Below are positions 13,694-34,320 of a stretch of DNA of 64,000 nt, piece after piece. Position 1 is the first letter of the stretch. Each line of letters begins with the position of its first letter. The notes under the pieces were generated by a model, which saw only the letters and a list, made by a program, of their open reading frames with translations, was not told the DNA's origin and searched no databases. The translations under genes were made by a program, and so were the position numbers. The DNA is from an uncultured virus (IMG/VR IMGVR_UViG_3300032038_000019) (Duplodnaviria; Heunggongvirae; Uroviricota; Caudoviricetes), in the IMG/VR virus record IMGVR_UViG_3300032038_000019. The stretch is one strand, 5' to 3'.

Positions 13694-14590
13694 TTAACAA
13701 ACTATTTTTCCACTGAAAGGGTCAATGACTAATGGTGCATGTTTGCGCTTATATTCTGTTCGCAAATTACGATGTGCAACACCGTCTACAATTGTTTTAC
13801 CGTATTTACCATACAAATCAATATAAGGCTTGAAATCGTGTTTTCCGTCCAATACATCCCTTCTTTTTTCAAAAGGGATTTGAAGCCAACATTCTAATAT
13901 TTCATCGACTTGTGCATAGGTAAGTCCTGGTGCTATTTGGTCCAAATCTGATTTAGATACGCCATTTCCATCAGTAGGTGTAATATCAATTGCGTGTTGA
14001 AATGCGTCTGCGTGTTCCTTTTTGTTATCACGAAGCCATTCTGCAAGTTGATATAATTCGTGCTTCCACAAGCCACCAATAGGGTTTACATCGCCTTCAT
14101 CACCATGCTTGGTCCAAAAGCCAGTATAATGCTCAGTGAGATTGTCAGTGTCAAGAACAATTCCTCCAAGAACGCCTGCATAATGGTATAATGTTTCCAT
14201 CCTAATACGTGCTTTAATATTTCCTTCGGCAATTGGCGTTGTTAATAGACTCTTGATAGGTTTTTTAGCTTCAAAAAATTTTGAAGTTGTTTCATATAGT
14301 GTTTCTATATTAATGATTTTATAAACACTACACATCTTTCCAGCAAGATTTGCAGAATCATTTTCTTCTTGTTTATTAGTATTACAAGGCAAAGATAATC
14401 CAATCAAAGGAATACCAACAATTTTTGCTGCGTCCTGTGCGATTGATGCTACAATTGTAGAATCTAAACCACCACTAATACCCAATACAAATGCATTAAG
14501 TTTATTTTCTACTGCATAATCTGCAAGACCTTGCACCATATTATGGTACAAAGTCTTATAATCTAAATTATTTTCGTGTATTATTTTCAT
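13694..14590 (-). CDS. nadE: NH3-dependent NAD+ synthetase
   Basis: LGISGGLDS, GNIKARIRM, TDN.TE...GFWTKHGD, PIGGLWK, PTDG. Confidence 0.93.
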   Translation of the reverse strand: MKIIHENNLDYKTLYHNMVQGLADYAVENKLNAFVLGISGGLDSTIVASIAQDAAKIVGIPLIGLSLPCNTNKQEENDSANLAGKMCSVYKIINIETLYETTSKFFEAKKPIKSLLTTPIAEGNIKARIRMETLYHYAGVLGGIVLDTDNLTEHYTGFWTKHGDEGDVNPIGGLWKHELYQLAEWLRDNKKEHADAFQHAIDITPTDGNGVSKSDLDQIAPGLTYAQVDEILECWLQIPFEKRRDVLDGKHDFKPYIDLYGKYGKTIVDGVAHRNLRTEYKRKHAPLVIDPFSGKIVC

Positions 14591-15870
14591 ACTCTCACTA
14601 AAACGTGTTTTTTCTTACCTTTCTGAATAAGCATTGTATTATTGCTTAATAACATTGTAGGTGAAATTGTCAATTTAGAATCTGCAATTTTGTTTTTATT
14701 AATTGAAATTGCGCCACTTGTAATTAATTTTCTAAGCTCAGTCTTAGACCCAAGTTTTACAACATCGCACAGGAAGTCGAGAATAGGTGTTCCATTTACG
14801 TCTTCAATTTTAGTATCAACTTTAGGTACATCACGCATAATAGCATTAAATGTACTGCTATCAAGATTTTCCAAATCTTCAGTACTTGACTTTCCGAAAA
14901 GGATGTTTGAAGCTGCAACTGCTTTATTAAAAGCGTCTTCACCGTGTACCATACTTGTTACATCGTGTGCAAGTGTTTTCTGAAGAAGTCTTTTTTCTGG
15001 TGCCTTTTTATGTTCATCAATCAAAGACTGTATTTCTTCAATTGAACGATTCACCAAAAACATCTTCGAAAATTTTTCAGCATCAGCATCAGTTTGATTA
15101 ATCCAAAACTGCATGAATTCATATGGTGATGTTTTCTTTTCATCAAGCCATACAGTGTTTCCTTCAGTTTTTCCAAACTTACGTCCATCAGCAGTTGTAA
15201 TCAAATCCCAAGTAAGTCCGCAACAATCAGTTGTTCCATCCATCTTACGAAGTAAATCAATACCTGTTACAATATTTCCGAGATTATCAGTACCACCAAT
15301 TTGAAGCTTGCAATTATATGCTCTATTCAAATGAACAAAATCGTAGCCTTGCATAATTCCATAAATGAACTCTTGGCAAGAAATACCATTACCGTCACGT
15401 TCAAGACGTTTTTTTACGTTATCTTTAGCCATAAGGTAATTAACAGTAATCTTTTTACCAACTTCACGCATAAAATCAAGGAAACTAAAATCCTTCATCC
15501 AATCGTAGTTATTAAGCATTACTGCGCTATTAGCTTCTTTTGTATCGAAATCAATGATTTTTGAAATTTGATTCTTCACACATTCAACATTATGGAAAAC
15601 ATCTTCCATTGTAATTGATTTGCGCTCTTCACTCTTACCAGATGGGTCTCCAATTGCACAAGTTGCACCACCAACAAGAATAATTGGCTTATGGCCATAT
15701 TTCTGCATAATTTTAGACACCATTAAGCCAATAATGTGATGGACTCCAAGTGAATCTGCTGTAGGGTCAATTCCCAAATAGAACGTTGTTGGGGTTGAAA
15801 AAAGTTCTTTAAGATTACCACTTGTTTGAGAAATCAAACCTCTCCATTTTAATTCGTCAATAAGATTCAT
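14587..15870 (-). CDS. tyrS: Tyrosyl-tRNA synthetase (divergent HIGH motif)
   Basis: YLGIDPTADSL, GGAT..IGDPSGK, NNYDW, MQGYDF, QIGG.D..GNI, KFGKT, C-terminal S4 domain. Confidence 0.95.
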   Translation of the reverse strand: MNLIDELKWRGLISQTSGNLKELFSTPTTFYLGIDPTADSLGVHHIIGLMVSKIMQKYGHKPIILVGGATCAIGDPSGKSEERKSITMEDVFHNVECVKNQISKIIDFDTKEANSAVMLNNYDWMKDFSFLDFMREVGKKITVNYLMAKDNVKKRLERDGNGISCQEFIYGIMQGYDFVHLNRAYNCKLQIGGTDNLGNIVTGIDLLRKMDGTTDCCGLTWDLITTADGRKFGKTEGNTVWLDEKKTSPYEFMQFWINQTDADAEKFSKMFLVNRSIEEIQSLIDEHKKAPEKRLLQKTLAHDVTSMVHGEDAFNKAVAASNILFGKSSTEDLENLDSSTFNAIMRDVPKVDTKIEDVNGTPILDFLCDVVKLGSKTELRKLITSGAISINKNKIADSKLTISPTMLLSNNTMLIQKGKKKHVLVRV

Positions 15871-16187: not shown

Positions 16188-17807
16188 TTAAACGTTAATG
16201 TTAGAAAGGATTTCTTGATTCAATGCAGAATCAATAACTTCCTCCATACTAATAGGTTTATTTTCAATCATTTCACGGGCTTCAATTTCCTCCCCACAAA
16301 TCATAGAAATGATAGAACCATCAAAACCGCTCATAAAATAACACCCACCGTCATCAATAGTGGCAGGAAAATCAGTCTTAGCACGTGATGTGCAATCCCA
16401 CCATATGAATCTGAACGAATTAACCCAATCAGTAGGGAAGCATTCATATAACTTTTCTTTAGCTACTTCATAGTTAGTTTTACTGTCAGCCCCATGTTTT
16501 CCACATGGGTTAAACTGCATGTCACTAACTACTAAAAGTGTCTTTGGATAATCTTCCAAAGGAATCTTAGGATTCTGCTTACGAATTCTAACAATTTCGT
16601 CAACAACACTTTGGAAATTTGTACCACCCCAAGCAGTATTACTATCAACAATACTACCAATCATATCAGTAAAATCACCTTCAAGCTGCTTTACGTGTGA
16701 TACACTGTCAAACATAATCACATTCTTATGGAATGCCCCCTCATTTAATGTTGAAAAGAATACACCCAATGAAATACAAATATCATAAGCACTAATATCG
16801 CCATTGACTCTTGTAGTCATAGAGCCAGATGTATCAAGTGCACACCATACATTACCAGTGATTTTTTCATCTTTTTTAGCTTTGCTAATAAGTTCGTCAA
16901 ACTGCTTATTCCAAGTAACCTTCTGATATAGAGGTGCACCATCTCGTTTGGAAATAACTTGATGACCAAGTTCATGCACATATCCAGTAAACTTAGCTGT
17001 AGGCTGCTTAAGCAACCATTCTGTATAAGGTTTTACTAACCCTTGATTTTTCAAAAGTTTACTATTCGCAATAATATTGAGTGCCTTACCTGGAATAAGA
17101 TTCCAATTAAGTTTATCAAAATTCTTAGAGCAAATAATTTTCTGAAAATCGTGAGCTGTACCACTTGTCTTTAAATGATTGTAGTCTTTATAAGACAATT
17201 TACAGAAATTAGCAAAATCTTTTGCCAACTGATTGGTTATTTTTGTCCAATCAGTCTTGCAACGATTTGAACTTGTCTTGATACGTGGCATAAACTTTTT
17301 AATTAAGTTTACGTGTGTTTCACATTCCAAGCCTTTTTTCAAAAGTGTGAACATAATGGTGTTATCGAGAACATTGGTCTTCAGTACAACATCATAGTAC
17401 ATAAGAGTCCAAATATCTTTCCAAGAGCCTACTATTGGTAATACCCAAATGTTTTTATACAATTCATCAGGATGGAAAGCTGCCAACCAAAGAATTCGCT
17501 TCAAAGATTCATCACGTGTGCCTTGACCTTTCTGAACCTTTTCAGTTTCATTTTCTTTGTTTATTCTAACTTTACGTGTAATCAAACGTAAATAGAAAGG
17601 AAAGCGTAGTGCTTTTTCTGCATCTTCTTCCCAAAGAGCTTTTTGGTCAGCAAATACTTCATCTAATGCTCTGCCTCTATAGTTTCCTGCTTTGCCGAAT
17701 TGGTCTACCATTGCAGTTCCAGCTGATTTATTTGTTAAAGCACCATTTTCAGTCAATGTCATACCGTTGAAATTCAATACGTCTATAAAACTATTTTTGC
17801 TTTCCAT
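16188..17807 (-). CDS. DUF2828-family protein with C-terminal vWA domain (Ro60/TROVE-related)
   Basis: TENGA, GQG.R, GSWKD, K.MPR, MIDAS DTSGSM, GGTNF, VVSDMQFN, SGF; start MESKN lies below the promoter at 17834. Confidence 0.85.
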   Translation of the reverse strand: MESKNSFIDVLNFNGMTLTENGALTNKSAGTAMVDQFGKAGNYRGRALDEVFADQKALWEEDAEKALRFPFYLRLITRKVRINKENETEKVQKGQGTRDESLKRILWLAAFHPDELYKNIWVLPIVGSWKDIWTLMYYDVVLKTNVLDNTIMFTLLKKGLECETHVNLIKKFMPRIKTSSNRCKTDWTKITNQLAKDFANFCKLSYKDYNHLKTSGTAHDFQKIICSKNFDKLNWNLIPGKALNIIANSKLLKNQGLVKPYTEWLLKQPTAKFTGYVHELGHQVISKRDGAPLYQKVTWNKQFDELISKAKKDEKITGNVWCALDTSGSMTTRVNGDISAYDICISLGVFFSTLNEGAFHKNVIMFDSVSHVKQLEGDFTDMIGSIVDSNTAWGGTNFQSVVDEIVRIRKQNPKIPLEDYPKTLLVVSDMQFNPCGKHGADSKTNYEVAKEKLYECFPTDWVNSFRFIWWDCTSRAKTDFPATIDDGGCYFMSGFDGSIISMICGEEIEAREMIENKPISMEEVIDSALNQEILSNINV

Positions 17808-17944
17808 ATCTATTCTCGTTATTTGTTTACATTTGCAAATATATATATAATTTTCTGTATTACCAAATAAAATCTTAGTTTTTTTCATAAATAACAGCAT
17901 ATTTAACTTCTATTAACTATTTATATAGGAAATAGAAGCTAAAT

Positions 17945-19306: not shown

Positions 19307-19831
19307 TTATCCTCTCTTCTTTAAAATTACTATTGTTTTATTTCCTTCGTCTTTTGGCATACTTTCTGGTGTTGCCACTTCTTCTAAACCCCTAATAAAG
19401 AGATATATAGACTTTTTATTGTCTTCACGTCTTGATAGTTCACGTCCTTTCATAGTAAGAACTACTTTAACCTTACTACCCTCTCCAATGAACTTCTTTG
19501 CTTGGTTAACCTTTGTTTGTAAATCGTGGTCTGCTATATTAACGCTTAACTGAACTTCTTTTAAAGGTTTTGCGCTAGCTTTGTTCTTCTTAGCAGCTTT
19601 TTTAAGTTCATAAAGCATCTTCTCGTAACTTGCGATTTTACAAATTGGCGTTGGTGCTTTTTGATTGATTTCAATCAAATCAAGTTCCATTTCTGAAGCA
19701 ATTGCTTTAGCTTCTTTTAGAGTAACAATTTTACTCTCAATACCTTCGCCAACGATTCTAACCAAATCTTCGTGAATATCATTATTGATTAGATATTTAG
19801 GTTTCACGAAAGTGTTTTTGTTTTTAGCCAT
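19307..19831 (-). CDS. infC: Translation initiation factor IF-3
   Basis: IN..I....VR, A...ELDL.EI...A..PICKI..Y.K..Y, I..HD..TK, KVKV....KGRE. Confidence 0.93.
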   Translation of the reverse strand: MAKNKNTFVKPKYLINNDIHEDLVRIVGEGIESKIVTLKEAKAIASEMELDLIEINQKAPTPICKIASYEKMLYELKKAAKKNKASAKPLKEVQLSVNIADHDLQTKVNQAKKFIGEGSKVKVVLTMKGRELSRREDNKKSIYLFIRGLEEVATPESMPKDEGNKTIVILKKRG

Positions 19832-32341: not shown

Positions 32342-32361
32342 TTTAGGTAAAGCCATTATAG

Positions 32362-32445
32362 TACCTTGAGAGGGACTTGAACCCTCATCAGCAACTGCTG
32401 AACAGATTTTAAATCTGTCTTCTATACCAATTCGAATATAAGGGT
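32362..32445 (-). tRNA. tRNA-Leu(TAA) with two acceptor mismatches
   Basis: ACAGA-TTTAAAA-TCTGT, long arm TCAGC-AGTT-GCTGA; acceptor ACCCTTA/TCAAGGT. Confidence 0.8.
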
Positions 32446-32452
32446 TTATCTA

Positions 32453-33382
32453 TTATTCTTTATATTTCCATATATATCCTCCTGCACTTCTTTTTTTATG
32501 TAAAGCGCATTTAGAAATATCTCCATGAGCTATATTTAAAGAATTTTCCGCATCAGCTATACTTAACCATTCTTTAATTAAATTAAGATTTGCATCATAT
32601 TGTAAAACACTTTTAGAATGAAAATCATATTTCATTTTAAAACTATCGTATAAATCATATTTTATTAGATATTTTTTTATAGTAGGTCTTGTTACATTTA
32701 ATTCTTTAGCTATTTGCGTTATATTATTATACTTATTATATAATTCAATAAGTTTTTCTTTTGCTATAAAAACTTTTTCATTATATTCTTTTATATATGC
32801 TTCATAATGTTCTCTACAACAAAATCTTTGAATTTTGTCTAATCTTGGACTATAAAATTCTTTTCCACAATATTCACAAATAGTTAAATGATTCTTCTTT
32901 ACTTCTAATCTTTTAGCTTTAGTAGTATTTTTCCTATTTCTATTTCTGAAATTAATAGTTTTAGAATGACAATTTGGACAAAGAATTTGTAAATTTTTTA
33001 TTCTATTATCATAATGGTCTCCATTAATATGATGAAGTTCTAAATGAACTTCTTTTCCAGATATATGACATAATTCGCATTCATTCTTTTTTAATTCCGA
33101 TTTTATCAATCTTTTTCTTAAAGAATCACTAGAATAAATAATTCCTTTTTGTAAAATATCATTTAAAGGATAAATTGCTGTTTTTTCAGTATTTCCTTTT
33201 CCTTTATTCCATCTTTGCCCTGTAAAATGAGAAGTATCTAAATTATATAAAGTAATCTTAGATTTTATTGTTTTATAATTACCTCCAACAGGTTTTAATC
33301 CGATTTTTCGACATACTTCAGCATATGAAAAACTATTTTTCACAGCTTCTTCCATTAATTCTTTAGTATATTTTATTTTCAT
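32453..33382 (-). CDS. Free-standing HNH homing endonuclease (HNH, Zn finger, HTH, NUMOD1-like)
   Basis: CELC...LELHHINGD..DNR..NL..LCPNCH; C-terminal V.QYD.....IKEW.SI..A...AGGYIW; very AT-rich. Confidence 0.9.
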   Translation of the reverse strand: MKIKYTKELMEEAVKNSFSYAEVCRKIGLKPVGGNYKTIKSKITLYNLDTSHFTGQRWNKGKGNTEKTAIYPLNDILQKGIIYSSDSLRKRLIKSELKKNECELCHISGKEVHLELHHINGDHYDNRIKNLQILCPNCHSKTINFRNRNRKNTTKAKRLEVKKNHLTICEYCGKEFYSPRLDKIQRFCCREHYEAYIKEYNEKVFIAKEKLIELYNKYNNITQIAKELNVTRPTIKKYLIKYDLYDSFKMKYDFHSKSVLQYDANLNLIKEWLSIADAENSLNIAHGDISKCALHKKRSAGGYIWKYKE

Positions 33383-33520
33383 ATTAATTATATTTACTAA
33401 TATAAAAAATGCTACTTTGCTGAAAAATGTCAAACACAAAATTTAAAAATTAATAAATATTAACATTTATTTTTTAAAAATATTTCTTATTGGAATTTCA
33501 CCATCAAGGCATGAAATAAT

Positions 33521-33641
33521 GCAGTCACTACAACCTTTTGCTACAGCTCATCTACGTCATACCGTTGATTTTGATATTATCTCAAGGTTACTGACTCAAA
33601 AGGGCTACTGTTAACCTTTTTTCGCATATTGTAGTGATTAC
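33521..33641 (-). ncRNA. Unidentified structured RNA with its own promoter
   Basis: TCACTACAA/TTGTAGTGA terminal stem, CCTTTTG/CAAAAGG inner stem; -7 box at 33644-33653. Confidence 0.55.
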
Positions 33642-33830
33642 GTTACAAATATATATAAATATTATAATAAAACCAAATATTTTATATATTATTTGTCAAC
33701 AAATGTATTTTTGTAATTAACACATCATCGGAACATGAATTAAATGATAATGCAGTAAATGCTGAAATAAAAAATAATAACAGCTTTTTCATTTTTTTAT
33801 ACATTTATTAATTATGCTTTATTAAATAGT

Positions 33831-34059
33831 TGGGAAAGGTAGGATTCGAACCTACACGATTTACGTCCTTATCATCATAATTCGTTTATATTAAACGATA
33901 TTACAAAGTGGATGCCATTACATGATTTCTCACACCAAAGGATGGACTTACCTAAAGCAGTGGATAATAAAGGCTTCTGCGAATAAAATATATTTTTCAT
34001 TATTCACTAAAATCGAGCCATACAATGTCCCCAGCGTCTACCAATTTCGCCACTTTCCC
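33831..34059 (-). ncRNA. tRNA-like RNA with a ~170 nt insert replacing the anticodon/variable arms
   Basis: GGGAAAG/CTTTCCC-A, Leu-type D-arm GCG-AAATTGGTAGA-CGC, GTAGG-TTCGAAT-CCTAC; -7 box at 34070. Confidence 0.75.
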
Positions 34060-34117
34060 AAAATTTAAAGCAAATATACAAATAATATACTAAAAATCAA
34101 AAGCTCAAAGGGTTAAA

Positions 34118-34249
34118 TTATATTAATTCTCTCCTTATAATCCTTCTCATACCACCATTCTTTTTATTTGGATTGGTTCTACGCACAGGTGTTCTTTTAA
34201 TTACAACATTATTTGCTTTTGCTCTGTTGCTTGTACACGCACATGCCAT
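34118..34249 (-). CDS. 43-aa basic protein with MACAC N-terminus
   Basis: MACACTSNRAKANNVVIKRTPVRRTNPNKKNGGMRRIIRRELI; absent from the supplied track. Confidence 0.6.
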   Translation of the reverse strand: MACACTSNRAKANNVVIKRTPVRRTNPNKKNGGMRRIIRRELI

Positions 34250-34320
34250 AATTTGTATAATTAAAATAGTGTTATTATTCTTTTATATAAATATATGACA
34301 AAACGCAAAAATATCAATGG

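What the first reader, a model, noticed from the sequence alone, without database searches (positions are those of the whole stretch)
33831..34059. tRNA shell with a ~170 nt structured insert instead of an anticodon arm
A perfect acceptor, Leu-type D-arm, perfect T-arm and A73 enclose a long insert containing hairpins (GTGAATAA/TTATTCGC, TCGTTTA/TAAACGA) and a possible long-range CGATTT/AAATCG pairing. I cannot rebuild an anticodon stem by removing an intron and see no group I core motifs. It lacks the G3:U70 pair of tmRNA and keeps a real D-stem. It has its own promoter box. It could be a new class of chargeable tRNA-fusion ncRNA; bacterial LeuRS largely ignores the anticodon.
Basis: partly seen in the sequence, partly recalled or inferred. 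Interest (0 to 1): 0.72.

Follow-up and report, generated by a model that had tools for sequence, protein, structure and literature searches.

The report
Leucine-tRNA-shaped RNA without an anticodon
A giant virus of rumen bacteria carries a conserved 229-base gene, found in rumen RNA libraries, that keeps the top half of a leucine tRNA but has about 170 bases of other RNA where the decoding arm should be, so it is probably a tRNA look-alike with another job rather than a working or dead tRNA.

Summary
On the minus strand, 34059..33831, lie a perfect 7-bp acceptor stem, a Leu-type D-arm, a T-arm and A73, around about 170 nt that no tool names (ARAGORN; Rfam at E<=10). No single deletion restores a canonical anticodon arm.

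The key new result is a divergent, syntenic copy in a second phage record (G007). Its flanking genes are 72-80% identical in nucleotides to the window's.
- The tRNA shell is kept by 6 double (compensatory) changes in 16 pairs, with none broken.
- A 55-nt core is 52/55 identical, while the rest of the insert is 44-49% identical.
- The promoter block TTATTTGTATATTTGC is identical.

Rumen metatranscriptome contigs from four runs carry the unspliced form.

It is not a canonical group I intron: Rfam gives no hit here, against 34.6 bits for a neighbouring phage tRNA-Leu intron used as control. It is not tmRNA (G3-C70, full D-stem) and not a YrlA match.

Best reading, confidence 0.55: a non-decoding RNA derived from tRNA-Leu. 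All E. coli-type LeuRS identity elements are present, so charging is plausible but untested. The fold of the lower body is unresolved.

The scan has noted insert-bearing tRNA-like genes in other phages before, and this same element lay inside an earlier window on another genome (e1-5650519).

The parts
34071..34101 (-). Own promoter: TTTG (34101-34098), 19 nt, TATATTTG (34078-34071), which ends 11 nt before position 1 of the RNA
   Evidence: the motif TTTG-N17-23-TAnnTTTG occurs 22 times in the window against 7.0+-2.4 in shuffles; the 16-nt block TTATTTGTATATTTGC is identical in the window, G001 and G007, at the same 11-nt distance. TAnnTTTG is the Bacteroides -7 consensus (PMC4747536, passages).
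33831..34059 (-). The whole 229-nt tRNA-Leu-derived RNA gene
   Evidence: Homologues are at L001:1642-1871 (G001, 98% identical) and L088:6463-6690 (G007, 65% of alignment columns identical).
34053..34059 (-). Acceptor stem, 5' strand GGGAAAG
   Evidence: 7/7 pairs in all three copies, and 4 of the 7 pairs changed on both sides in G007.
34034..34050 (-). D-arm, Leu type (A14, A15, G18 G19, A20a)
   Evidence: The D-stem pair C-G becomes U-A in G007.
34016..34032 (-). A 17-nt stretch in the place of the anticodon arm (GGGGA CAUUGUA UGGCU). It does not fold as an arm. Its 5' strand GGGGA is at 34032-34028.
   Evidence: only 8/17 positions are identical to G007.
34010..34015 (-). CGAUUU: 5' strand of the long-range helix, which is the 5' strand of the ancestral variable-arm stem
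   Evidence: C45-G203 becomes U-A in G007; the normal tRNA-Leu(UAG) in L123 has CGAU-GUAA-AUCG at this place.
33979..34007 (-). Hairpin GUGAAUAA / 13-nt loop / UUAUUCGC
   Evidence: one compensatory change (A-U to G-C) and one U.G to U-A. Indels among close strains fall in its loop.
33913..33967 (-). Nearly invariant 55-nt core UUAUCC[A/U]CUGCUUUAGGUAAGUCCAUCCUUUGGUG[U/C]GAGAAAUC[A/G]UGUAAUGGCA. It includes UCCAC (33964-33960), the candidate 3' strand of the anticodon stem.
   Evidence: 52/55 identical to G007, against 44-49% in the flanking insert. U128/A137 becomes C/G.
33882..33898 (-). Hairpin UCGUUUA-AUA-UAAACGA, specific to the window/G001 lineage
   Evidence: G007 has a gap there.
33857..33862 (-). 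AAAUCG: 3' strand of the long-range (variable-arm) helix. It is preceded by GUAA and followed by U48.
33839..33855 (-). T-arm GUAGG-UUCGAAU-CCUAC
   Evidence: Rfam local matches. A-U becomes G-C in G007.
33831..33838 (-). Acceptor stem 3' strand CUUUCCC plus discriminator A73. No CCA is encoded.
   Evidence: A73 is present in all three copies.

Best explanation
This is a separately transcribed, non-decoding RNA that descends from a class II tRNA-Leu gene of a rumen jumbo phage. The host is probably a Bacteroidota species, judging by the promoter type.

Shown:
- The acceptor stem, D-arm and T-arm, A73 and the tertiary-contact nucleotides are under selection for structure.
- The place of the anticodon loop is not conserved.
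- A 55-nt core inside the ~170-nt lower body is almost invariant.
- The unspliced form occurs in RNA libraries.

Inferred:
- The tRNA top half serves as a handle for tRNA maturation (RNase P, 3' trimming, CCA addition) and for stability.
- It very likely also makes the RNA a substrate of LeuRS, which in E. coli needs neither the anticodon arm nor the variable arm.
- The invariant core is the working part and binds a partner, protein or RNA, that I could not identify.

The molecule would therefore work like the modular tRNA mimics tmRNA and YrlA: a tRNA module plus an effector module.

The fold of the lower body is not settled.
- Model M1 has a long anticodon arm (positions 28-100) and a large variable-region domain.
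- Model X has the old variable-arm stem (45-50 with 198-203) closing a three-way junction.
For: 1. Conservation across lineages. G007 holds a 228-nt copy at the same place, in the order small basic ORF, identical promoter block, element, tRNA-Leu(UAA), tRNA-Leu(CAA), two tRNA-Gln. Flanking genes are 72-80% identical in nucleotides.

2. Shell covariation. 6 pairs changed on both sides (acceptor 4, D-stem 1, T-stem 1). None of the 15 Watson-Crick or G-U shell pairs is broken. The 13:22 position is A.A in the window, G.A in G001 and A-U in G007.

3. Identity by segment: core 93-147, 52/55; positions 28-44, 8/17; positions 45-92, 26/53; positions 148-193, 21/48.

4. Covariation inside the insert: hairpin 53-81 (A-U to G-C); 45:203 (C-G to U-A); 88:193 (C-G to U-A); 128:137 (U-A to C-G); and, read by hand from the folds, 35:92 (U-A to C-G) and 29:99 (G.A to A-U).

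5. No decoder can be made. No single deletion gives a canonical anticodon arm, and the residues flanking the long arm differ between the lineages.

6. Leu identity. A73, U8, A14, A15 with U48, G18 G19, A20a and a UUCGAAU T-loop are present in all three copies. These are the elements listed for E. coli, where tRNA-Leu variants without the anticodon and variable arms are still charged (PMC9976931, passages of the section 'Leucine identity').

7. Own promoter.

8. RNA libraries. I laid four runs of four studies, two of them with identical figures and possibly the same data. Their contigs cover or bridge the insert without a gap: 33829-34056 joined to 34027-34271, 33865-34080, and 33947-34097.

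9. The AUG-led 41-aa frame is not kept. The AUG is out of frame in G001 and in the RNA-contig variant, which has a 1-nt insertion at 33992.
Against: - Only three copies in two lineages are known. IMG/VR patterns, 47 syntenic metagenome loci and GTDB genomes gave no more. All covariation therefore rests on one divergent sequence.
- Folding is not better than shuffles in the window (z -0.90; insert -0.45). In G007 it is modestly better (z -2.08, 6 of 200 shuffles as good).
- The two fold models exclude each other and score alike on covariation. By energy, G007 prefers M1 by 21 kcal/mol, while the window is indifferent.
- Core conservation could instead be coding. In one frame, 3 of the 4 changes in positions 90-147 are synonymous third positions, and the peptide LLS[T/S]ALGKSILWCEKSCNG is kept.
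- RNA-library contigs can contain DNA, and contigs cannot show RNA ends or exclude a spliced minority.
- Charging, processing and a partner are all untested. No LeuRS, TROVE or SmpB gene was found in G001, which is about 80% complete.
Confidence: 0.55

Rival explanations
1. It is a tRNA-Leu gene interrupted by one or two introns of an unknown class, like the 'enigmatic' tRNA introns of Lak megaphages. The conserved core would be the splicing machinery or its recognition site, and a decoding tRNA-Leu would be the product.
For: - The locus is a hot spot for intervening sequences in tRNA-Leu genes. L020, L053 and L060 carry 832-836-nt tRNA-Leu(UAA) genes with a group I core and an HNH ORF. L010 is 769 nt. 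G001's second tRNA-Leu is 919 nt.
- Devoto et al. report unclassified tRNA introns in huge Prevotella phages (PMC6784885, passages). A 2026 survey reports intronic sequences in tRNAs of 262 (77%) of the jumbo phage genomes that use alternative genetic codes (PMC13037316, one passage).
- The 5' exon-like part is intact up to C32.
Against: - No single deletion gives a 5-bp stem with a proper 7-nt loop.
- Removing only the variable-arm insert leaves an anticodon arm with 2 (window) or 3 (G007) central mismatches and different loops, CAUUGUA against GACAAUA.
- Removing only the long arm leaves no conserved loop.
- No group I hit at E<=10 on 249 nt, although the same model finds the neighbouring phage intron at 34.6 bits.
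- No joint was seen in the four RNA runs. This is weak evidence, since contigs can miss one.
- Pfam hits in the window include no RtcB or splicing endonuclease.
- In G007 an intact tRNA-Leu(UAA) already lies 19 nt downstream.
Confidence: 0.12
2. The conserved core is read by ribosomes. Either it is a small ORF carried on a tRNA-like RNA, or, more boldly, it is a tmRNA-like message entered without a start codon after the Leu-charged tRNA-like end binds a ribosome.
For: - The frame LLS[T/S]ALGKSILWCEKSCNG is kept between the window and G007. 18, 19 and 16 of 19 first, second and third codon positions are identical. 3 of the 4 changes are synonymous, a pattern like the well-conserved methyltransferase gene (94/97/79%).
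- In G001 the frame is open but has lost its AUG, as a tmRNA-type frame could.
- The top half is tRNA-like with charging elements.
Against: - The same four changes preserve RNA pairs.
- With four changes and three frames to choose from, the synonymous pattern is not significant.
- The start differs (AUG, none, TTG), and the N- and C-terminal flanks differ in sequence and length: 41 aa against 29 aa.
- No protein of 22-72 aa in a 5.8-billion-protein collection shares words with it.
- tmRNA features fail: G3-C70 instead of G3-U70, a full D-stem, no Rfam tmRNA match, and no SmpB or tmRNA in G001.
Confidence: 0.08
3. It is a dying duplicate of tRNA-Leu(UAA), wrecked by an old intron or homing-endonuclease event, still transcribed but useless.
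For: - A working tRNA-Leu(UAA) lies next to it in every copy.
- The neighbouring tRNA-Leu of the window shows fresh damage of this kind: an HNH ORF and a displaced 5' fragment.
- Thermodynamic structure is weak in the window.
- Relatives at 50-67% protein identity have an ordinary tRNA-Leu(CAA) at this place.
Against: - Six compensatory changes keep the shell.
- A 55-nt core is 94.5% identical beside 44-49% flanks.
- The promoter block is identical.
- The total lengths are equal, 229 and 228 nt, and the spacing between the D-arm and GUAAAUC is 169 nt in both (read directly).
Confidence: 0.08

Closest known systems
Bacterial and phage class II tRNA-Leu, such as the tRNA-Leu(UAA) genes L004 and L011 and the tRNA-Leu(UAG) gene L123
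   Same: Acceptor stem, D-arm sequence, T-arm, A73 and U48. The 5' half through C32 matches. The variable-arm remnant CGAU...GUAA-AUCG-U matches.
   Different: There is no anticodon loop or working anticodon stem. About 145 extra nucleotides are present. It is not called by ARAGORN or by Rfam RF00005.
tmRNA (Rfam RF00023)
   Same: A chargeable tRNA-like top half whose lower body is replaced by a long internal domain. It is non-decoding. One frame in the core is conserved.
   Different: Pair 3:70 is G-C, not G-U. It has a complete D-stem and Leu-type rather than Ala-type identity. No RF00023 or permuted-tmRNA match beyond the T-arm. No SmpB gene in G001.
YrlA / bacterial Y RNAs with a tRNA-like module (Chen et al. 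2014, PMC4201824; passages read)
   Same: A modular RNA with a tRNA-like domain carrying D- and T-arm features plus a second module. Such RNAs are found in phages too. The tRNA module is proposed there to give processing, CCA addition and protection.
   Different: In YrlA the tRNA-like domain is one module of a ~100-nt Ro60-bound RNA encoded beside the Ro60 gene. Only M. smegmatis YrlA has a 7-bp acceptor stem there. Here the RNA ends are themselves the acceptor stem. No Rfam family reached threshold here. Pfam TROVE was not found in G001. The DUF2828/DUF7788 protein at 16188-17900 has an unresolved relation to Ro60.
'Enigmatic' tRNA introns of Lak megaphages (Devoto et al. 2019, PMC6784885; passages read)
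   Same: Huge phages of gut or rumen Bacteroidota with oversized tRNA genes whose inserts match no Rfam family and are highly conserved.
   Different: There an anticodon and an excision point could be predicted. Here none can. I could not compare sequences, because the supplements were not opened.
Group I introns in tRNA-Leu(UAA), from cyanobacteria and plastids (recalled) and from the neighbouring phage genes L020, L053 and L010
   Same: An intervening sequence inside a tRNA-Leu gene, in the same gene cluster.
   Different: No group I core is detectable, against 34.6 bits and E 2e-7 for L020. No exon 2 restores AAAA plus a 3' strand.

Membership tests
Decoding tRNA (Rfam RF00005 / ARAGORN) | Cloverleaf with a 5-bp anticodon stem and a 7-nt loop (U33, purine 37) | tested here: not met
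   Searches give no call. In one search the only arm obtainable by a single deletion has A33 and U37.
Decoding tRNA (Rfam RF00005 / ARAGORN) | Acceptor, D and T arms with conserved tertiary nucleotides | tested here: met
   all three arms pair in the three copies, with U8, A14, G18 G19 and UUCGAAU present.
Group I intron inside a tRNA gene | Conserved catalytic core (P3-P8, the R/S elements) detectable by RF00028 | tested here: not met
   No RF00028 match at E<=10. The positive control L020 scored 34.6 bits.
Group I intron inside a tRNA gene | Removal of the intron restores a functional tRNA | tested here: not met
Group I intron inside a tRNA gene | Self-splicing activity | not testable with these tools
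   This needs in vitro transcription with GTP and Mg. No joint was seen in the RNA contigs, which cannot prove absence.
tmRNA | G3:U70 alanine identity pair | tested here: not met
   G3-C70 in all three copies.
tmRNA | tRNA-like domain without a D-stem, pseudoknots, and a tag frame ending in a protease signal; match to RF00023 or RF04321 | tested here: not met
   The D-stem is complete. Only the T-arm matches, at 7.5 bits. The tails of the conserved frame differ...NINEL against ...TRFA.
tmRNA | SmpB partner | tested here: inconclusive
   No SmpB gene in G001, which is about 80% complete. The host's SmpB could serve.
YrlA / Y RNA | Encoded next to a Ro60 (TROVE) gene and bound by it | tested here: not met
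   No Pfam TROVE in G001 and none among the window's Pfam hits. Binding is not testable.
YrlA / Y RNA | Match to a described Y RNA family in Rfam | tested here: not met
   No family reached threshold. That Rfam holds a YrlA model is recalled, not checked.
Substrate of bacterial LeuRS | A73, A15:U48, G18 G19, A20a and D/T-loop tertiary pairs (E. coli set, PMC9976931) | tested here: met
   By sequence in the window, G001 and G007.
Substrate of bacterial LeuRS | Is actually leucylated | not testable with these tools
   This needs a charging assay or acid-gel/periodate analysis.

The most novel reading that the evidence does not exclude
It is a leucine-charged counterpart of tmRNA. The tRNA-Leu-like end would be charged by LeuRS and enter a ribosome without codon reading, and translation would then switch to the start-less conserved frame in the core (LLS[T/S]ALGKSILWCEKSCNG...). 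The phage would thereby tag or rescue nascent chains in its own way. A milder form of the same idea is a dedicated anticodon-less Leu donor for a non-ribosomal transfer reaction.
Probability: 0.06. Interest if true: 0.95.

Novelty: new variant of a known kind. Interest (0 to 1): 0.62.

Why it matters
Huge phages of gut and rumen bacteria carry many oversized 'tRNA' genes that annotation pipelines skip or label as intron-bearing. This case comes with a divergent homologue. It shows that at least one such gene is kept by selection as a tRNA-shaped RNA that cannot decode, and that it holds an invariant 55-nt element of unknown function.

It also keeps every known element for charging by LeuRS. 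That makes a concrete question testable: do phages use charged or tRNA-processed mimics for something other than decoding, such as a decoy, a scaffold, an amino-acid donor or ribosome rescue?

It is also a natural counterpart of the engineered 'tRNA scaffold' used to express RNAs stably in bacteria. That comparison is recalled, not checked here.

Tried and rejected
- Canonical intron removal: ARAGORN with introns up to 3000 nt found nothing. Running ARAGORN on 1190 artificial deletion products called a tRNA in 658 of them with arbitrary anticodons, so it was too permissive to use. I replaced it with the strict enumeration.
- Group I fold by eye (P3/P7-like pseudoknot 34-40/137-143 with 88-97/184-193): dropped. 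G007 supports other partners for 137, and Rfam finds no core.
- A resemblance of the core to a stretch of 23S rRNA, recalled from memory, was tested by BLAST of 71 nt against 201 Bacteroidia genomes. Only 5 of 201 had short matches (19-26 nt) at different query positions, so there is no conserved host copy or target.
- The origin of the insert was sought in the window and in about 110 loci by blastn-short, tblastx and nhmmer: nothing beyond the tRNA parts.
- Searches of phage GenBank records and GTDB genomes (3 chance matches) found nothing.
- A fuzzy-regex scan timed out.
- The variable-arm-like mini hairpin ACG-UAAAU-CGU is not kept in G007, where the C-G pair becomes C.A.
- RNA contigs leave 33638-33828 and 33400-33524 without cover, and one contig ends at 33829, near the tRNA-like 3' end. 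Contigs cannot define RNA ends, so I draw nothing from this.
- No spliced joint appeared in the four runs. That is not proof of absence.
- The Ro60 idea for the DUF2828/DUF7788 protein at 16188-17900: no PDB sequence match, no NCBIfam match, and the Atlas returns only DUF2828 clusters. It is left open. No structure was predicted.
- LeuRS, TROVE, SmpB and tmRNA were not found in G001.

Full report
**Setting**

The window is AT-rich (about 30% G+C), and almost all genes lie on the minus strand.
- PHROG and Pfam hits show a large phage: ClpP-type prohead protease, DNA methyltransferases, an HNH/NUMOD endonuclease, SbcC-like protein, DnaK/DnaJ, two sigma factors, IF3 and a TyrRS.
- ARAGORN finds 15 tRNA genes.
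- The window's own assembly is not held.
- The nearest record, G001, is a 279.7-kb IMG/VR contig judged about 80% complete. It carries the finding at 98% identity.
- Public runs that hold the stretch are labelled bovine gut, gut or plain metagenome.
- The motif TTTG-N17-23-TAnnTTTG occurs 22 times in the window against 7.0+-2.4 in shuffles, nearly always on the coding strand. TAnnTTTG is the Bacteroides -7 consensus (PMC4747536, passages). I therefore infer a Bacteroidota host.

**The observation**

On the minus strand, 34059..33831 reads as follows:
- GGGAAAG, U, G;
- GCGA-AAUUGGUAG-ACGC, then U;
- GGGGAC, followed by about 170 nt;
- GUAGG-UUCGAAU-CCUAC, CUUUCCC, A.

The acceptor stem pairs 7/7. 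Pair 3:70 is G-C, and the discriminator is A.

ARAGORN and Rfam see only the T-arm. My shell scanner finds one such shell in the window, against a mean of 0.1 in 30 shuffles.

The 5' half through C32 matches ordinary phage tRNA-Leu(UAA) genes. Enumerating every single deletion gives no canonical anticodon arm.

The claim of a strongly 'structured' insert is not borne out by energy: z is -0.90 for the element and -0.45 for the insert.

**Neighbourhood**

In relatives found through the 141-aa protein upstream (8 IMG/VR loci; 47 metagenome loci) the gene order is: that protein, a small basic ORF (MACxC...RIIR), a promoter, then a cluster of tRNA-Leu genes followed by tRNA-Gln.
- In 5 of the 7 loci scanned, the first tRNA is an ordinary tRNA-Leu(CAA). 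The other two have no tRNA there.
- The cluster is a hot spot for intervening sequences. L020, L053 and L060 have 832-836-nt tRNA-Leu(UAA) genes with an HNH ORF and a group I core. Rfam's group I model finds that core at 34.6 bits, E 2e-7.
- L010 has a 769-nt gene of the same kind. G001's second tRNA-Leu spans 919 nt.
- In the window itself, the second tRNA-Leu has a displaced 5' fragment, an HNH/NUMOD ORF, and a tRNA-Leu(UAA) with two acceptor mismatches.

**The decisive find**

An 18-nt pattern from the insert hit a second lineage, G007 (an 11.8-kb IMG/VR contig).

It is syntenic. The order is ClpP, the orthologue of the upstream protein, the small basic ORF, the same promoter block (TTATTTGTATATTTGC, identical, with 11 nt to position 1), a 228-nt copy of the element, then an intact tRNA-Leu(UAA) 19 nt downstream, tRNA-Leu(CAA) and two tRNA-Gln. 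Flanking genes are 72-80% identical in nucleotides.

Within the element, identity to G007 varies sharply by segment:

| Element positions | Identity to G007 |
|---|---|
| 1-27 | 70% |
| 28-44 | 47% |
| 45-92 | 49% |
| 93-147 (core) | 94.5% (52/55) |
| 148-193 | 44% |
| 194-204 | 82% |
| 205-229 | 76% |

The shell is kept by double changes: 4 of 7 acceptor pairs, 1 D-stem pair and 1 T-stem pair. None is broken. This rules out free decay. It shows selection on the tRNA top half and on a 55-nt core, but not on the place where an anticodon would be.

**Anatomy of the lower body**

Two readings compete.

Model X.
- The stem CGAUUU (45-50) with AAAUCG (198-203) is the old variable-arm stem of a tRNA-Leu. 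The normal tRNA-Leu(UAG) in L123 has CGAU-GUAA-AUCG-U before its T-arm. Here GUAA-AUCG-U is still in place, and about 143 nt sit between the two strands.
- C45-G203 becomes U-A in G007.
- The 17 nt between position 26 and CGAU have exactly the length of an anticodon arm but do not pair.
- Inside, hairpin 53-81 (A-U to G-C) and helix 88-97/184-193 (C-G to U-A, but 2 of 10 pairs broken in G007) form a three-way junction.

Model M1.
- The 5' strand of the anticodon stem, GGGGA, pairs with UCCAC (96-100) with one G.A mismatch. In G007 the pairing GAGGA/UCCUC is perfect. The helix runs on into a long irregular arm capped by hairpin 53-81.
- The core and what follows then sit in the variable region.

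Comparison of the two.
- Covariation counts are alike: 10 pairs with double changes in each model, mostly from the shell.
- G007 prefers M1 by 21 kcal/mol (-64.9 against -43.8), while the window is indifferent (-47.3 against -48.3).
- Position 137 covaries with both 128 and 148.
- With one divergent sequence the fold cannot be settled.

**Is it an intron?**

Not one of a known class.
- There is no group I, group II or other Rfam match at E<=10 on 249 nt, while the control worked.
- No removal of one piece gives a decoder.
- Removing the variable-arm insert leaves an anticodon arm with central mismatches and non-conserved loops. Removing the long arm leaves no conserved loop.
- The window's Pfam hits include no RNA ligase or splicing endonuclease.
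- Metatranscriptome contigs from four runs of four studies carry the insert colinear with the gene, and no joint was listed. Two of these runs have identical figures and may be the same data.
- Contigs can miss a spliced minority, and RNA libraries can hold DNA.

I keep an unknown intron class as a rival at 0.12.

**Is the core coding?**

The window has a 41-aa ORF through the insert. Its AUG is out of frame in G001 (extra A) and in the RNA-contig variant (1-nt insertion at 33992). Both indels lie in the loop of hairpin 53-81.

Yet the frame through the core is kept in G007: LLS[T/S]ALGKSILWCEKSCNG, opened by TTG, 29 aa. Three of the four changes in 90-147 are synonymous third positions. First, second and third positions are identical at 18, 19 and 16 of 19 codons.

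The same four changes also preserve RNA pairs in M1: 35:92, 29:99 and 128:137. The flanks of the peptide differ in sequence and length. No protein of 22-72 aa in a 5.8-billion-protein collection shares words with it.

I rate RNA-level constraint as more likely, but I cannot exclude translation. This is the basis of the boldest reading, a Leu-type tmRNA analogue. That reading fails the tmRNA membership tests: G3-C70, a full D-stem, no Rfam match, and no SmpB in G001.

**Charging**

The passages I read in Giege and Eriani (PMC9976931, section 'Leucine identity') state the following for E. coli.
- A73, the A15-U48 pair, G18 G19, A20a and the D/T-loop tertiary pairs set leucine identity.
- The anticodon and the long variable arm do not.
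- Variants lacking both arms are still charged.

All these elements are present in the window, G001 and G007. Charging is thus plausible, and it would explain why A73 and the Leu-type D-loop are kept. It is not shown.

**Verdict**

This is a real, conserved gene, found unspliced in RNA libraries, for a non-decoding RNA derived from tRNA-Leu. It is a new family, absent from Rfam, known so far from three copies in two lineages of rumen jumbo phages.

It works, I infer, like the modular tRNA mimics: a tRNA module for processing, stability and probably leucylation, plus an effector module. Its partner and its fold remain open.

Other notes of this scan describe insert-bearing tRNA-like genes in other phages. 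This suggests a wider, still undescribed class.

Noticed in passing
window 32361-33530 (minus strand): The second tRNA-Leu gene looks rebuilt by a homing event. A 5' fragment, GCCTTGATGGTGAAATT (about 33513-33497), would pair 7/7 with the 3' acceptor strand. It is followed by a 328-aa HNH/NUMOD endonuclease ORF (32453-33439), then a tRNA-Leu(UAA) (32361-32445) whose own 5' acceptor strand has two mismatches.
   Followed up: partly
L001:2068-2986 (G001) and L088:6797-7030 (G007): G001's second tRNA-Leu carries an insert of about 830 nt containing a group I R-like motif (TTCCAGACTACA), but Rfam finds nothing there at E<=1. Two blocks of that insert (54 nt at 81%, 28 nt at 89%) recur in G007 as free-standing spacer DNA between tRNA-Leu(UAA) and tRNA-Leu(CAA).
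   Followed up: partly
window 33525-33637 (minus strand); promoter at 33677-33646: A 113-nt stretch upstream of the second tRNA-Leu has its own promoter motif. It appears in RNA-library contigs of two runs at 7 differences, inside a 532-nt contig that is unlike the window on both sides. It may be another small RNA shared between phages. No Rfam match.
   Followed up: no
window 34118-34249 (minus strand); L088:6269-6403; relatives L014, L017-L020: A small, very basic ORF (43 aa, MACAC...RIIRRELI) is conserved directly upstream of the tRNA-Leu cluster in all relatives. It matches no Pfam or NCBIfam family.
   Followed up: no
L014:4801-4896, L019:4724-4819, L026:2272-2361; L017:5193-5283, L020:6003-6093: In related jumbo phages ARAGORN-96-nt tRNAs with four-base anticodons (gaga, aaga, tagc) and 88-91-nt 'tRNA-Gln(UUG)' genes with long variable arms.
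   Followed up: no
L014:5093-6166 (also L032): A 1074-nt tRNA shell (TGGGACA.../...TGTCCCA-A) encloses an HNH endonuclease ORF. This is another interrupted tRNA gene in the same cluster.
   Followed up: no
L014:3560-3680, L017:4050-4160, L018:680-800: A conserved GC-richer stretch of about 110 nt with obvious inverted repeats lies upstream of the small basic ORF in relatives. It may be a structured RNA. The window has no counterpart.
   Followed up: no
window 14587-15870, 19307-19831, 16188-17900: The phage encodes a TyrRS, an IF3 and a 570-aa DUF2828/DUF7788 protein, which PHROGs labels 'RNA-binding protein'. Whether the last is Ro60-like was not resolved.
   Followed up: partly
L011:1664-1804: An unrelated phage has a 141-nt tRNA gene that Rfam's tRNA model still recognises (43.6 bits) despite an insert of about 70 nt.
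   Followed up: no
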